From a virus, in the UHGV virus genome UHGV-0341991: 16,473 nt of DNA, one strand, 5' to 3'. Below the pieces are notes generated by a model, which was not told the origin of the DNA, did no database searches, and worked only from the letters and a program-made list of their open reading frames with translations. Position numbers and translations under genes: made by a program. Within the stretch, counting starts at the first letter, position 1; each line of letters opens with the position of its first letter. Shown here one piece after another: positions 2,679 to 5,904 of the stretch.

Positions 2679-3172
2679 TAAGCCCCCACGTAATTCCCTG
2701 ACAGATACCACTCTTCACCCGATGCAGCGCGCTTGCTGCTTTTCCGTAAGCACCGCTCACGACGCGCCAGAAAATTGTTTCGTTCTGGCTGGGAGTGGCT
2801 TTCACGGAATGCCGCCATCCACACGGTTGCAGCACGACGGTATAAGCCCCTGGACTCCAGTTCTTCAGCCTGGCGGGTCAGGCACAAAATCACCCGTGGA
2901 TCGTTAGTGCCGACATAGAAATTGCGCACAGGTCTGGTTTCTCGAACTGGTTGTGGTTCCGGTTCCTGCGCTCTCTCAGTCAGGCGCGGGAAATGTCTGC
3001 GTGTATCTCCTTCACAACGGTGAGCCACACGCCCACTCTGACGTAACTTGCTTGCTGACTGCAGAACGCGCTGCCGTGAGTAACCTGCAAAAGCATCCGC
3101 AATGTCTCCGGAAGTACACCCCGGATGGGCTTCAATGAATTTCTGAACTTCATTCAAAAGACTCATGATCAC
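2678..3172 (-). CDS. PerC/ANR-family-like transcriptional regulator (yfdN-like, 164 aa)
   Basis: C-terminal AEELESRGLYRRAATVWMAAF..RRERC resembles the PerC/ANR motif (LE-RGLWRRAA-RW...C), recalled from memory. The 164-aa length equals that recalled for K-12 YfdN. Start is GTG 3172 or ATG 3166; overlaps the upstream TGA. Confidence 0.5.
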   Translation of the reverse strand: MIMSLLNEVQKFIEAHPGCTSGDIADAFAGYSRQRVLQSASKLRQSGRVAHRCEGDTRRHFPRLTERAQEPEPQPVRETRPVRNFYVGTNDPRVILCLTRQAEELESRGLYRRAATVWMAAFRESHSQPERNNFLARRERCLRKSSKRAASGEEWYLSGNYVGA

Positions 3173-3987
3173 CCCCTGAATCCTGCCGGGATCTGGCTGT
3201 AGTCCACGTTGTCGTAACTGGCTTTGAAGTACGGGTCCTCGCGTCTGGCTGCAGATACCGCAGGAACTTCCCAGGATTCTTCGAAATGACGATCCGGACC
3301 AAAGAACGTAACAGCCTGTTTCACAAATTGTGTGCCGCTGTTACCCATCGCAGATACCCAGCCCGCGTAGCGTTTCACACCTTCCAGCATGGTTTCGGGG
3401 TTTACCCCCTCATTCAAACGGGCTTTCCAGGCTTTGAAGGCTGCAGATTTTGAATTGCCACCAGCACGTTTGGGATATACCAGCCATGCCTGCTCAAACT
3501 CCGGAGAGTATTCCGGTCGGTTTGAACGAACTCGCACGGACTCATCAACTGATGCACCAACAGCTATTGGTTCATTGACTGGTTCTTTGACTGGTTCAAA
3601 AGAGTGACTGGTTCTGGGTGAATCTCCTGCACTACCCCCTGGTGCAACTCCTGCACTACCTGGTGAATTTGCTGCACCAGATAGTGAATTATTTGCACTA
3701 CCCCCTAGTGAATCTCCTGCACCATCCAGATGAAGGAGATAGATATTACTTGAGTTACCTTTTTCACCTTTCCGGGTGACTTTTTTTACCAGCCCGGACT
3801 CACAAAGGGCCGCAATATGATTCATCACAGAACGTTTGCTAATCTCGCACTGGTCAGCAATATGCTGGTAGCTGGGCCAGCACTCCCCCTGATCGCTGGC
3901 ATTATCAGCCAGCTTGATCAGAACCAGTTTTCGCAATGGATTACCCACTCGAATTTTCATCGCTTTAACCATCAGCTCCATACTCAT
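3169..3987 (-). CDS. Replication initiation protein: N-terminal HTH, Gly/Ser/Ala-rich linker encoded by iterons, C-terminal DnaT-like domain (yfdO-like, intact)
   Basis: N-terminal KLVLIKLADNASDQGECWPSYQHIADQCEISKRSVMNHIAALCESGLV is an HTH of the phage replication-protein type. C-terminal YPKRAGGNSKSAAFKAWKARL..GTQFVKQAVTFF resembles the DnaT-like ssDNA-binding domain. Tandem DNA repeats lie inside the gene. Confidence 0.75.
   Translation of the reverse strand: MSMELMVKAMKIRVGNPLRKLVLIKLADNASDQGECWPSYQHIADQCEISKRSVMNHIAALCESGLVKKVTRKGEKGNSSNIYLLHLDGAGDSLGGSANNSLSGAANSPGSAGVAPGGSAGDSPRTSHSFEPVKEPVNEPIAVGASVDESVRVRSNRPEYSPEFEQAWLVYPKRAGGNSKSAAFKAWKARLNEGVNPETMLEGVKRYAGWVSAMGNSGTQFVKQAVTFFGPDRHFEESWEVPAVSAARREDPYFKASYDNVDYSQIPAGFRG
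3575..3730. repeat. Iteron-like tandem repeats inside the initiator gene: 3 copies of (t/g)tgactggttc at 3575..3614 and 5 copies of a 21-24 bp unit GTGAAT..TGCAC.A.CCCCT at 3618..3730; candidate origin
   Basis: Read directly; unit starts at 3618, 3642, 3663, 3684 and 3708. A moderately AT-rich stretch follows at 3731..3790. Lambda's origin has the same layout (iterons inside the O gene). Confidence 0.6.
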
Positions 3988-4208
3988 GCAGCACCTCCGA
4001 GATGCTTCATGTTTTTTCCGGAGCGAAAGGCTATAAGCGGCATACTGACGCGGTAACTACGGCCCAGCGGTTCACAAATCACCTTCTGACATTCACGGTC
4101 AACCAGGCTAACACGTAGAACATGCCCTGCAGGTGTGGTGTACCACTGACCCGGACGAGGACAACGGAAAGTCTGATTGGTAAACCGTTTGAAAATATTC
4201 CGGATCAT
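3984..4208 (-). CDS. Small basic hypothetical protein (74 aa)
   Basis: ORF with ATGA overlaps at both ends (3984..3987 and 4205..4208). No recognisable motif; Arg-rich and Asp-poor, so coding status is uncertain. Confidence 0.4.
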   Translation of the reverse strand: MIRNIFKRFTNQTFRCPRPGQWYTTPAGHVLRVSLVDRECQKVICEPLGRSYRVSMPLIAFRSGKNMKHLGGAA

Positions 4209-4750
4209 TTGCGCCCCCTTACCTCTGAAGGGTTCAGCGACAAATTTATGAGGCAGGCCAGTGCCGAAGCATCATTAATATAGTCATACAAGCTAACAGC
4301 CAGCGGAGATTCGGCTTTTGCCAACATAGGATAAAGCTGCTGCAGCCAGACCTGATGAATTGATGAAATGTAGGAATAGAGAACGCTGGCGTTATGTGCA
4401 ACGTCGCTCAGTACAGAGGGATTTGAAAGCTGTTTCTCCATCTGGTTAAAGGCATTGATGTATGCCTCTTTGAACTGGGCAGCACGTTTACCCGTGAAAC
4501 CCATAGCAAGAAACGCAAAGCCGTCGCGGGTTATTTGATAGCAAGGTAGTTTGCGGCCTGTGCAATCGGTGTAATCACTCGCCGAAAAATTGCGGGAAGT
4601 GAATGATGCAGAGCATTCAAGCGTGCGGATCTTTTTCAGTACATCGTCATGACGTTTGGAGAAGAAGTTGGCAACAGCCAGGGATGAAGTAACAGCCTGA
4701 CCATCAACGATGGCAATTTCAGGTTGAGTGAGGGTTGGGATCGTAGCCAT
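4205..4750 (-). CDS. Rha-family phage regulatory protein (181-aa form; the in-frame open frame continues upstream to 5356)
   Basis: MATIPTLTQPEIAIVDGQAVTSSLAVANFFSKRHDDVLKKIRTLE is the typical N-terminus of Rha-family proteins. ATG at 4750 is preceded by AAAGAGG. The 202 upstream codons (4751..5356) have no stop but only about 1% Asp, and contain a terminator-like hairpin. Confidence 0.6.
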   Translation of the reverse strand: MATIPTLTQPEIAIVDGQAVTSSLAVANFFSKRHDDVLKKIRTLECSASFTSRNFSASDYTDCTGRKLPCYQITRDGFAFLAMGFTGKRAAQFKEAYINAFNQMEKQLSNPSVLSDVAHNASVLYSYISSIHQVWLQQLYPMLAKAESPLAVSLYDYINDASALACLINLSLNPSEVRGRK

Positions 4751-4916
4751 GATGGCAGCCTCTTTGGTGATTTTTAATAACTCACCACCAAGGCTTTCCA
4801 CGACCTTATTGGTGGTGAGACGTACAGGGGTGGAAATACCGGTCACCAAAGAACCCGGCCCAACCGAAGTTGGCCCTGCACGCCCCACCATAATTTGGGC
4901 GTAATGCTGCTCATTA

Positions 4917-4941
4917 CACAAAAAAACCGCAAGAGCGCGGT
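4917..4941 (-). terminator. Candidate intrinsic terminator or attenuator inside the open frame upstream of Rha
   Basis: Minus strand reads aaccgc-gctctt-gcggtt followed by a 5-7 U tract (stem 4924..4929 with 4936..4941). The loop contains CGCTCTT. Confidence 0.35.
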
Positions 4942-5352
4942 TGTGCGCTTTGGTGAATTCCGAGTTTCCACGCCCGGCACCCGCTTTATAAGGTGCCTGA
5001 ACAGTGTAACGTCCCGGAATGGCAGAATCAATGTGCTGGTGGTCCTTCACACTCAACAAAATCACGCCTGAATTTCCACAAAGGACTAAAGCACTCATGC
5101 GGGTAGTCTTTGCGAAGATAGATAACGCGCTGTGTTTCTGGCTCCCAACGAATAACATGGACATAAAGCCCTCTTCCGTCACGAAACCAGCGGTTAAGTT
5201 CCTGCACAACTCGCCCCCCACAGTCAGGTAAAGTTCTCTGTGGTTACTTACAGCCAAGTGATTTGGTAATCTGCATTCATGCCGTAACAACAGGTGTTCA
5301 GCGACACTGACCACCAGCTGTTGCGACAAACGGTTATTTGCCGTTAAACTGT

Positions 5353-5904
5353 TCATGCGTTAGTTTCTCCACAGACACAAAACGCCACGACGCCCGGAGC
5401 TGCACACTCGCGGGCGTCACTCTTTTCTGGAGCGCAGAAGATTTTGTAGACCAGTGCTGCATGCTCCTGGAGCTTCGAAATTGACAGATACAACTCATCA
5501 TTAATTGCTGTCTGCTCGTGTGGCTCCACGACCCCATCTTCGATTGCCGAACGAATCTGCTTTGAGTAATTCCCGATCTGTTCGATGACTTCCAGCAGGC
5601 GCTGGTTTATATCGGCGTTCTCTACTTCCTCAATTTCAGGAAGCGATACGAACACCCCACCAGCAGACTGTGCGACAGCATCCGCAATGTAGTGAGTGCC
5701 AGCCGCGCGCTGTAAAACCATTGCCCATCCCAGCGGGAAAATCTGATCGCCATCTGCACGAAGGCGGTTGAATAAAGCGTTCTCTGTTACATCCAGCCAG
5801 TCAGCAGCTTCAGCGTAACCCCCAGGCAATGCCGCGATAGTTTTTCTGACAGCTTTCACGTACCACTCAGGTTGTTTTTCCACTTTCCAATGATGCTTAC
5901 CCAC
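5353..5904 (-). CDS. CII-position phage regulatory protein (183 aa), function unassigned
   Basis: Acidic, protein-like composition. GTG start at 5904 preceded by AGGAGG with a 6-nt spacer; overlaps the cro stop by 8 nt. Sits immediately downstream of cro, where lambdoid phages place cII-like regulators. Family assignment is a guess. Confidence 0.6.
   Translation of the reverse strand: MGKHHWKVEKQPEWYVKAVRKTIAALPGGYAEAADWLDVTENALFNRLRADGDQIFPLGWAMVLQRAAGTHYIADAVAQSAGGVFVSLPEIEEVENADINQRLLEVIEQIGNYSKQIRSAIEDGVVEPHEQTAINDELYLSISKLQEHAALVYKIFCAPEKSDARECAAPGVVAFCVCGETNA

What the first reader, a model, noticed from the sequence alone, without database searches (positions are those of the whole stretch)
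4751..5356. 202-codon open frame upstream of the Rha domain looks non-coding and contains a terminator-like hairpin
The frame is open from 5356, where ATGA overlaps the upstream stop, down to the Rha domain. The translated peptide has only about 1% Asp and no recognisable domain. A good SD plus ATG at 4750 begins a canonical Rha N-terminus. Inside the extension, the minus strand shows a hairpin followed by U5-7 with CGCTCTT in the loop (4917..4941). This is either a fused N-terminal domain of unusual composition or a tR1/nutR-like regulatory leader that happens to be open; automated annotation would probably call the long ORF.
Basis: partly seen in the sequence, partly recalled or inferred. 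Interest (0 to 1): 0.5.

Follow-up and report, generated by a model that had tools for sequence, protein, structure and literature searches.

The report
Phage RNA switch hidden inside ORF
The odd 202-codon "extension" in front of the Rha antirepressor gene is not a protein domain: it holds a small gene in another reading frame and a known phage P4/P1-type small-RNA immunity switch, and its frame appears to be kept stop-free, a known design that annotation pipelines routinely miscall as one long protein.

Summary
The 383-codon frame, the ATGA overlap, 1% Asp, the SD plus ATG at 4750 and the hairpin plus U-run at 4942-4920 are all present.

The extension holds four things:
- A 59-aa DUF4222 gene (5207-5028) in a different frame, with pN/pS 0.14 there against 1.69 in the long frame.
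- A conserved promoter (5031-5003).
- An IsrK/SeqA-type sRNA (4996-4920, Rfam 62.5 bits).
- A C4/CI-type antisense RNA (4895-4808, 83.6 bits). Its loops are complementary to sites in IsrK and to the Rha ribosome-binding site.

These sites co-vary three ways across 10 specificity combinations.

The frame is not open by chance. It has no stop in 59/59 module variants, while the other two frames carry 26 polymorphic stop positions. Its pN/pS is about 1. Its start overlaps the stop of whatever gene lies upstream.

This matches phage P4's nested eta/kil genes. There, translation from upstream overrides RNA-mediated termination, and the short product starts at the homologous AUG.

Verdict: a new member of a known kind, with modest interest. 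Its main value is for annotation.

The parts
4205..5356 (-). Long 383-codon frame (eta-like). It is stop-free from the upstream gene's stop to the end of the Rha gene.
   Evidence: It is annotated as one CDS in mEp460, ST64B, cdtI and E. coli SCU-484. The frame is open in 59/59 module variants. Pfam Phage_ASH matches aa 117-213.
5353..5356 (-). ATGA junction. The start of the long frame overlaps the stop of the CII-like/YmfL gene (5353..5904).
   Evidence: Sequence. PF06892 matches the upstream gene. The same ATGA coupling recurs with about 7 unrelated upstream genes and in P4 between ORF88 and eta.
5210..5356 (-). First 49 codons of the long frame, with no clear coding signal in any frame.
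   Evidence: pN/pS is 0.50, 0.94 and 0.60 in the three frames. Variable sites by codon position are 17/21/17. No Pfam match.
5028..5207 (-). 59-aa DUF4222 gene in a different frame from the long ORF. It has a GTG start at 5207 and an SD GGGGGG at 5219-5214. Its TGA stop (5030-5028) lies inside the -35 hexamer.
   Evidence: PF13973 51.1 bits, E 9.5e-14. pN/pS is 0.14 in its own frame against 1.69 in the long frame. The peptide is conserved in diverged loci. PGAP annotates it as WP_001341559.1.
5003..5031 (-). Internal promoter: -35 TTGATT (5031-5026), 17-nt spacer, -10 TACACT (5008-5003), with +1 near 4996.
   Evidence: It is conserved in all upstream contexts, while homology is lost just upstream of it. 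It has the same geometry as the Gifsy-1 isrK promoter (TTGACA-17-TATATT, +1 seven nt on), whose activity was measured. It is too weak a consensus match for the generic scan.
4920..4996 (-). IsrK/SeqA-type small RNA. It carries target sites a1 (GUGGAAA, 4971-4965) and b1 (UCACCAAAG, 4956-4948).
   Evidence: Rfam RF01394 62.5 bits (gathering 50). There is a weak overlapping c4-a1b1 match. The same family hits the P4 PLE leader.
4918..4942 (-). Rho-independent terminator of the small RNA.
   Evidence: It is the last helix of the Rfam isrK model.
4808..4895 (-). C4/CI-type antisense RNA. Loop b' is CUUUGGUGA (4851-4843) and a' is UUUCCAC (4836-4830). It contains the AUG (4891-4889) that starts orf45 in Gifsy-1, which here is in frame with Rha.
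   Evidence: Rfam RF01695 83.6 bits (gathering 45). Fold z = -4.1. All 486 pair cells are paired and 11 pairs show double changes.
4759..4801 (-). Downstream targets a2 (GUGGAAA, 4801-4795) and b2 (UCACCAAAGAG, 4770-4760). b2 overlaps the Rha Shine-Dalgarno GAGG (4762-4759).
   Evidence: Three-way compensatory variation of a1/a'/a2 and b1/b'/b2 across 10 type combinations. P4 has the same layout.
4205..4750 (-). Rha-family antirepressor-like gene (181 aa). This is the short nested product.
   Evidence: PF09669 108 bits. pN/pS is 0.31-0.32. The ATG is invariant in 59 variants. The start context is homologous to P4 kil.

Best explanation
The 606-nt 'extension' is a composite, not a protein domain. 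Reading 5' to 3' on the minus strand it holds:
- about 147 nt with no coding signature;
- a real 59-aa DUF4222 gene in another frame;
- a constitutive-type internal promoter;
- an IsrK/SeqA-like sRNA ending in the observed terminator;
- a C4/CI-like antisense RNA;
- that RNA's downstream targets, of which b2 covers the Shine-Dalgarno of the Rha gene that starts at 4750.

Proposed mechanism. Steps marked 'inferred' rest on P4, P1 and Gifsy-1.

Transcripts from the internal promoter are untranslated. Most stop at the terminator and yield the small RNA. Read-through transcripts are processed to the C4-like RNA (inferred). Loops a' and b' of that RNA pair with a2 and b2; the complementarity is shown here. 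This pairing blocks Rha translation and favours termination before the replication genes (inferred). The small RNA carries decoy sites a1 and b1 that can titrate C4 and switch Rha on (inferred from Gifsy-1).

Transcripts from the early-right promoter are different. Ribosomes leaving the CII-like gene can restart at the overlapping ATGA and translate the stop-free long frame through the promoter, terminator and C4 region (inferred). This would prevent those RNA structures from forming and let transcription continue, as P4 eta does.

Selection therefore keeps the frame open but does not constrain the peptide. Both of those points are shown here.
For: RNA elements:
- Rfam gathering-level hits to isrK and C4 lie inside the extension.
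- C4 fold: z = -4.1.
- C4 covariation: 100% of cells paired, 11 pairs with compensatory changes, slid controls 35-47%.
- At least 4 a-types and 7 b-types change in concert at all three sites. Cognate duplexes are 7 nt for the a sites and average 9-10 nt for the b sites, against 4-5 nt for non-cognate pairs.
- The promoter hexamers are conserved across unrelated upstream contexts.

Other-frame gene: DUF4222 by Pfam, with pN/pS 0.14.

Long frame:
- pN/pS is 1.03, 0.88 and 1.01 over the module, against 0.31 in Rha.
- There are 0 stops in 59/59 variants. Polymorphic stop positions number 0, 15 and 11 in the three frames.
- The start is ATGA-coupled to many different upstream genes.
- Relatives with the same RNAs but a free-standing leader (N15, P7, Yersinia and Aeromonas phages) have stops in all three frames; in Gifsy-1 the homologous frame is closed by a TGA two codons before the orf45 AUG. 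The RNA sequence therefore does not force openness.

Homology to P4 eta/kil:
- The P4 locus gives the same Rfam hits.
- Phage_ASH covers the module in both the window and P4.
- The ATGA coupling and the b2-SD-AUG sequence are the same.
- The P4 mechanism is summarised in PMC10111431.
- The Gifsy-1 experiments are in PMC4825925.
Against: - No expression data exist for this locus. Translation of the long frame, the promoter activity, RNA processing and termination are all inferred from homologues.
- The internal promoter matches the consensus only 8/12 and failed the generic scan.
- The terminator hairpin is short (7 pairs).
- Upstream of the module, two of 43 variants break the long frame by 1-nt indels. 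The first ~100 codons are closely related across the sample, so their openness could be inherited and not selected.
- Codon-usage scoring does not discriminate between frames.
- One tandem cassette has a b2 that does not match its own b'.
Confidence: 0.7

Rival explanations
1. The 383-aa ORF is a genuine two-domain protein. Its N-terminal 'Ash' region works as protein, and the Rfam matches are incidental.
For: - The frame is open in all relatives and is annotated as one CDS in many records.
- Pfam Phage_ASH matches at 56 bits.
- PHROG 821 covers aa 61-383.
Against: - pN/pS is about 1 across the module and 1.69 where it overlaps DUF4222.
- The variable blocks change in the pattern required by RNA pairing, not by protein.
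- The C4 helices covary perfectly.
- The Ash profile coincides exactly with the RNA module in P4 too.
- The composition is odd: 1% Asp and no Trp.
Confidence: 0.1
2. The region is a purely non-coding leader. The open frame is a by-product of conserved RNA sequence and shared ancestry and is never translated.
For: - There is no amino-acid constraint.
- The first 49 codons show no coding signal.
- Gifsy-1, N15 and P7 work with free-standing leaders.
- Two variants break the upstream part of the frame.
Against: - There are 26 polymorphic stop positions in the other two frames and none in this one. If stops fell equally among frames, (2/3)^26 is about 3e-5.
- A start codon overlapping the upstream stop, often with a GGAGG, recurs in about 7 unrelated contexts.
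- Relatives with the same RNAs carry stops in every frame.
- P4 eta is reported to be translated and to prevent termination.
Confidence: 0.17
3. The region is a lambda-type tR1/nutR site, with boxA in the hairpin loop, that acts through an N-like antiterminator.
For: - CGCTCTT in the loop resembles boxA. This is a sequence observation, and the boxA consensus is from my own knowledge.
- The position, downstream of cro and the cII-like gene, is right for tR1.
Against: - The heptamer is not conserved in close relatives, which have CTCAT, CTTCA or TAGA.
- The hairpin is the terminal helix of the isrK/SeqA family, also found in P4, N15 and P88, which lack N.
- No boxB-like element was noted.
Confidence: 0.02

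Closest known systems
Phage P4 immunity region: nested eta/kil genes with seqA-t1, CI RNA and seqC (Forti et al. 1999, J Bacteriol 181:5225, as summarised in PMC10111431)
   Same: - Same Rfam families in the same order.
- A long ORF spans the internal promoter, terminator and antisense RNA.
- Its ATG overlaps the upstream gene's stop.
- Phage_ASH matches the module in both.
- The b2-SD-AUG sequence is nearly identical, and the short product starts at the homologous 'EAAIMAT'.
   Different: - The short product here is a 181-aa Rha-domain protein, not the 65-aa Kil.
- The host element is a lambdoid phage (mEp460/SfV/ST64B type) and the cassette sits in its early-right operon, not in a satellite's left operon.
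- A DUF4222 gene in another frame sits between the coupled start and the promoter.
- The a and b specificities differ.
Gifsy-1 isrK-orf45-anrP locus (Hershko-Shalev et al. 2016, PMC4825925)
   Same: - IsrK sRNA with the same promoter geometry and terminator.
- A C4-like element (STnc1160) follows it.
- An antirepressor-like gene lies downstream, and its ribosome-binding site is embedded in target sequence.
   Different: - In Gifsy-1, orf45 is a separate 45-codon ORF that ends in AUGA at the anrP start. A TGA two codons upstream of its AUG closes the frame.
- Here the same AUG is in frame with Rha and with 155 upstream codons.
- The Gifsy-1 locus lies downstream of antQ, not in the early-right operon.
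P1/P7 immI operon: c4 antisense RNA, icd, ant1/2
   Same: - An antisense RNA is processed from the same transcript it controls.
- It has upstream (a1, b1) and downstream (a2, b2) targets.
- It controls an antirepressor.
- Specificity-determining loops vary between heteroimmune phages.
   Different: - P7 has stops in all frames across the module.
- P7 has no isrK-type terminator hit.
- It has a separate icd gene.
- Its antirepressor is Ant, not Rha.
N15 cB RNA and antirepressor operon
   Same: isrK and C4 family hits with the same spacing, upstream of small ORFs.
   Different: No frame is open across the module. The first ORF (gp32) starts inside C4, as orf45 does.

Membership tests
C4/CI antisense RNA (Rfam RF01695) | Covariance-model score above the gathering threshold | tested here: met
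   83.6 bits against 45, full-length 1-87
C4/CI antisense RNA (Rfam RF01695) | Long outer stem enclosing two hairpins, supported by covariation | tested here: met
   The MFE structure equals the consensus, z = -4.1. 486/486 cells are paired and 11 pairs have double changes.
C4/CI antisense RNA (Rfam RF01695) | Loop sequences complementary to upstream and downstream targets on the same transcript, with the downstream target covering a ribosome-binding site | tested here: met
   a' pairs with a1 and a2 over 7 nt. b' pairs with b1 and b2 over 9-11 nt. b2 overlaps GAGG. The sites co-vary three ways.
C4/CI antisense RNA (Rfam RF01695) | Maturation by RNase P and repression in vivo | not testable with these tools
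   Known for P1 and P4 from the literature (my own knowledge). No data exist for this locus.
IsrK / P4 SeqA RNA (Rfam RF01394) | Score above the gathering threshold, with a terminal Rho-independent terminator | tested here: met
   62.5 bits against 50. The terminator scan found the hairpin.
IsrK / P4 SeqA RNA (Rfam RF01394) | Own promoter immediately upstream | tested here: inconclusive
   TTGATT-17-TACACT is conserved in all contexts and has the same geometry as the tested Gifsy-1 promoter. It matches the consensus only 8/12 and the scan did not call it.
IsrK / P4 SeqA RNA (Rfam RF01394) | Acts in trans to activate translation of the read-through mRNA | not testable with these tools
   Shown only for Gifsy-1.
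P4 eta/kil-type nested gene | One ORF spans the internal promoter, seqA/terminator, antisense RNA and seqC | tested here: met
   Frame 5356-4205 has no stop. The same holds in 59/59 variants and in P4, SfV, P88 and others.
P4 eta/kil-type nested gene | Start codon coupled to the stop of the upstream gene | tested here: met
   ATGA at 5356-5353. It recurs in about 7 unrelated contexts and in P4.
P4 eta/kil-type nested gene | Sequence homology to P4 Eta (Pfam PF10554 Phage_ASH) | tested here: met
   56.2 bits against a cutoff of 26, at aa 117-213. P4 Eta scores 82.2 bits.
P4 eta/kil-type nested gene | Translation of the long frame prevents termination | not testable with these tools
   Reported for P4. 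Here there is only the indirect signature: the frame is kept open with pN/pS about 1.
P4 eta/kil-type nested gene | Short product is Kil | tested here: not met
   The short product carries a Rha domain. Only the first ~10 residues align with Kil.
Gifsy-1 isrK-orf45-anrP operon | Separate orf45 that ends in AUGA at the antirepressor start | tested here: not met
   Here GCC ATC ATG GCT continues in frame. Gifsy-1 has TCATTATGA.
Rha family regulator (PF09669) | Rha domain above the Pfam threshold | tested here: met
   108.3 bits against 29.9, aa 223-308.
DUF4222 (PF13973) | Domain match and purifying selection in its own frame | tested here: met
   51.1 bits against 27. pN/pS is 0.14.
Lambda nutR/tR1 | Conserved boxA and boxB | tested here: not met
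   The boxA-like heptamer varies among close relatives. boxB was not searched for specifically.

The most novel reading that the evidence does not exclude
The cassette (promoter, IsrK, C4 and targets) may be a portable in-frame 'plug-in'. On this reading it attaches to the 5' end of various antirepressor-type genes, always recruits translation from whichever gene lies upstream, and carries freely reassorting a and b 'address' loops. At least 4 a-types and 7 b-types were seen, sometimes as tandem cassettes of different address.

That would imply a large RNA-based cross-immunity network linking lambdoid prophages, P2-like phages, P4-like satellites and PICIs. It would also imply that a Pfam protein family (Phage_ASH) is essentially the translated shadow of an RNA module whose only protein-level requirement is the absence of stop codons.
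Probability: 0.35. Interest if true: 0.55.

Novelty: new member of a known kind. Interest (0 to 1): 0.35.

Why it matters
The case resolves an apparent paradox. A long frame that is statistically far too open to be chance still looks non-coding. The reason appears to be that selection acts on the act of translation and on RNA pairing, not on the peptide.

Practically, public records, including RefSeq/PGAP, annotate a 383-aa 'Rha' protein (also called 'peptidase' or 'transcriptional regulator' in some records). That call swallows two regulatory RNAs, a promoter and a real small gene. Related sequence is found in about half of complete E. coli genomes: 2834 of 5426 have a match, and 475 cover at least 80% of the query.

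Recognising the cassette gives testable predictions:
- a non-SOS route to prophage induction through an RNA-controlled antirepressor;
- RNA-determined heteroimmunity among Stx-converting and other enteric phages.

Tried and rejected
The long frame scores mildly positive mainly because it lacks stops.
- The generic sigma-70 scan found no promoter. I located the promoter by conservation and by comparison with Gifsy-1.
- Forti et al. 1999 (PMC94026) is not held in the library. The P4 mechanism is cited through PMC10111431 and, for details of the abstract, from my own memory.
- I considered that the first 49 codons plus DUF4222 form one gene read by a frameshift at the G-run. One variant (L098, G7) fuses them. 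However, 41 of 43 variants keep them apart and ST64B has no slippery run, so I rejected the idea.
- The very long upstream extensions of the frame (up to 417 open codons upstream of the C4 AUG, first ATG up to 360, e.g. L056) looked to me like antisense translation of opposite-strand genes. I did not verify this and did not count them as evidence.
- I did not pursue PHROG 1170 or a possible link to e14 YmfM.
- I did not run structure prediction or the large protein searches, because they would not discriminate between the hypotheses.

Full report
**The observation**

The minus-strand ORF 4205..5356 is 383 codons long. Its ATG at 5356-5354 overlaps the TGA of the upstream 183-aa gene as ATGA. 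That upstream gene is a CII-like/YmfL protein (PF06892). The first 202 residues have 1.0% Asp and no Trp. A GAGG lies 8 nt before the ATG at 4750, and the Pfam Rha domain starts 20 residues later.

The hairpin AACCGCG-CUCU-UGCGGUU at 4942-4925 is followed by a U-run to 4920. The terminator scan picks it up, and it folds at -8.8 kcal/mol. The 202-codon stretch has no stop, where shuffles give 9.9 on average and are stop-free about once in 10,000. The other two frames carry 13 and 10 stops. The description is accurate, and the openness needs an explanation.

**What is inside**

Rfam at gathering thresholds finds two RNAs on the minus strand inside the extension:
- isrK (RF01394) at 4996-4920, 62.5 bits;
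- C4 antisense RNA (RF01695) at 4895-4808, 83.6 bits.

A weak match to the 'a1,b1 targets of C4' family overlaps isrK. C4 folds into the family consensus with z = -4.1. On 18 diverse homologues all 486 pair cells form standard pairs, and 11 pairs show changes on both sides. Slid controls reach only 35-47% pairing.

Upstream of isrK sits TTGATT (5031-5026), a 17-nt spacer and TACACT (5008-5003), with +1 seven bases further on. These hexamers are conserved in every genomic context sampled, while homology disappears about 10 nt upstream of the -35. The geometry equals that of the Gifsy-1 isrK promoter, whose activity has been measured.

**A real gene in another frame**

Positions 5207-5028 encode a 59-aa protein with a GTG start and a GGGGGG Shine-Dalgarno six bases upstream. 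It matches Pfam DUF4222 at 51.1 bits. Among 43 variants, pN/pS over this stretch is 0.14 in the DUF4222 frame and 1.69 in the long frame. The peptide is conserved in diverged loci through many synonymous changes. PGAP annotates it in some E. coli genomes. Its stop codon lies inside the -35 hexamer. The first 49 codons (5356-5210) show no coding signature in any frame.

**RNA-RNA addresses**

Aligning relatives shows six short hypervariable blocks in an otherwise conserved module. They are:
- a1 and b1 inside isrK;
- b' and a' in C4;
- a2 and b2 just upstream of the Rha start.

In 59 unique module variants there are at least 4 a-types and 7 b-types, in 10 combinations. The three copies of each site change together so that a' stays complementary to a1 and a2, and b' to b1 and b2. 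Cognate duplexes are 7 nt for a and average 9-10 nt for b. Non-cognate pairs reach 4-5 nt. b2 always abuts or overlaps the GAGG/GGGG of the Rha ribosome-binding site. One chimeric exception was seen in a tandem array. This is the logic of P1/P7 c4 and P4 cI immunity.

**Is the long frame coding?**

The amino-acid sequence is not selected. pN/pS in the long frame is 1.03, 0.88 and 1.01 over the three module segments, against 0.31-0.32 in the Rha gene. Yet the frame is kept open. All 59 variants have zero stops. The other two frames always have stops and show 15 and 11 polymorphic stop positions, against none in the long frame.

The RNA sequence does not force this. N15, P7, a Yersinia phage and an Aeromonas phage have the same RNA families but carry stops in all three frames. 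Gifsy-1 has a TGA two codons before the orf45 AUG.

In many unrelated contexts the first ATG of the frame overlaps the stop of whatever gene lies upstream (ATGA), often with a GGAGG, about 19 nt before the -35. In the window's lineage the coupled start lies 300 nt further up because the DUF4222 gene is interposed. There, two of 43 variants break the frame by single-base indels.

**The known precedent**

Phage P4 gives the same Rfam hits in the same order: isrK family at the PLE leader, then C4 as the CI RNA. A 197-199-codon ORF spans them. Its ATG overlaps the stop of ORF88 (GCATGATGATG). Its sequence around the downstream target, Shine-Dalgarno and inner AUG (UUCACAGGAGGCUGCCAUCAUGGCUAC) is nearly identical to the window's (UCACCAAAGAGGCUGCCAUCAUGGCUAC). 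Pfam Phage_ASH matches exactly this module in both P4 and the window.

According to the summary of Forti et al. 1999 in PMC10111431:
- the promoter internal to eta is constitutive;
- its transcript is terminated through CI/seqA interactions and processed to CI;
- the truncated product Kil is made on read-through;
- full-length Eta is translated only from an upstream promoter, coupled to the upstream gene;
- that translation prevents termination.

The Gifsy-1 paper already equates IsrK with P4 SeqA RNA and STnc1160 with CI.

**Most likely mechanism here**

Transcripts from the internal promoter yield the small RNA and, by read-through and processing, the C4-like RNA. C4 pairs with a2 and b2 and blocks Rha translation. 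By analogy it also blocks transcription into the replication genes downstream (3169..3987 and beyond). The small RNA's a1 and b1 sites can titrate C4, as in Gifsy-1, which would give a route to antirepressor synthesis and induction.

Transcripts from the early-right promoter carry ribosomes from the CII-like gene into the long frame. These ribosomes pass through the terminator and C4, which would make those transcripts immune to the RNA control.

What is shown here:
- the RNAs and their covariation;
- the complementarities;
- the other-frame gene;
- the stop-free, unconstrained frame;
- the recurrent start coupling;
- the homology to P4.

What is inferred: promoter activity, processing, termination, and translation of the long frame.

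**Annotation**

mEp460, ST64B, cdtI, several Stx phages and PGAP (in a genome whose 701-nt query region is 100% identical) call the full long ORF. Other records start it at internal ATGs. None of the records examined annotates the RNAs.

**Verdict**

This is a clear, well-supported instance of a known regulatory design in a lambdoid phage context, fused to a Rha-family gene. It is a new member of a known kind and of modest interest.

Noticed in passing
window 5028-5207 (-): A 59-aa DUF4222 gene lies wholly inside the annotated 383-aa ORF but in another frame. Its stop codon is embedded in the -35 hexamer of the internal promoter. It is missing from the mEp460 annotation and from some PGAP annotations.
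   Followed up: yes
window 4718-5008 (-); L127 (P4) 8330-8704 (-): Pfam PF10554 (Phage_ASH, 'ash family protein' in PGAP) aligns exactly to the translated seqA/terminator/CI/seqC RNA module in both P4 and this window. pN/pS there is about 1, so the family looks like the protein shadow of an RNA element. No paper in the searched library mentions this.
   Followed up: partly
L117 3137-5100, L032 7023-8100, L106 (-) 9211-10300: Some prophages carry two or three tandem cassette-plus-Rha units with different a/b address types. Each unit is ATGA-coupled to the preceding Rha gene. The third unit of L117 is chimeric: its b' does not match its own b2.
   Followed up: partly
L098 and L043 (relatives of window 5208-5222): Single-base indels in or next to the G6 run upstream of the DUF4222 start change which frames are joined. 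L098 (G7) fuses the first 49 codons to DUF4222, giving a 110-codon ORF.
   Followed up: partly
L056 about 10300-11400: In some loci the frame through the module stays open for 360-417 codons upstream. I read this stretch by eye as an inserted opposite-strand gene pair, so the open frame there is probably antisense translation and not a real domain. This was not checked.
   Followed up: no
window 4205-4208 (-): The Rha stop overlaps the start of the next 74-aa ORF (3984..4208) as ATGA. The early-right operon therefore appears to be a chain of translationally coupled genes.
   Followed up: no
L138 149-447 (-): The Yersinia phage locus carries an Rfam ryfA match (134.6 bits) about 1 kb upstream of its isrK/C4 module.
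   Followed up: no
L133 1476-1760 (Stx2a-converting phages, 48 records): In this large Stx2a group the frame across isrK and C4 is open only from a stop that lies between the -35 and -10 positions. This is an intermediate architecture that was not examined further.
   Followed up: no
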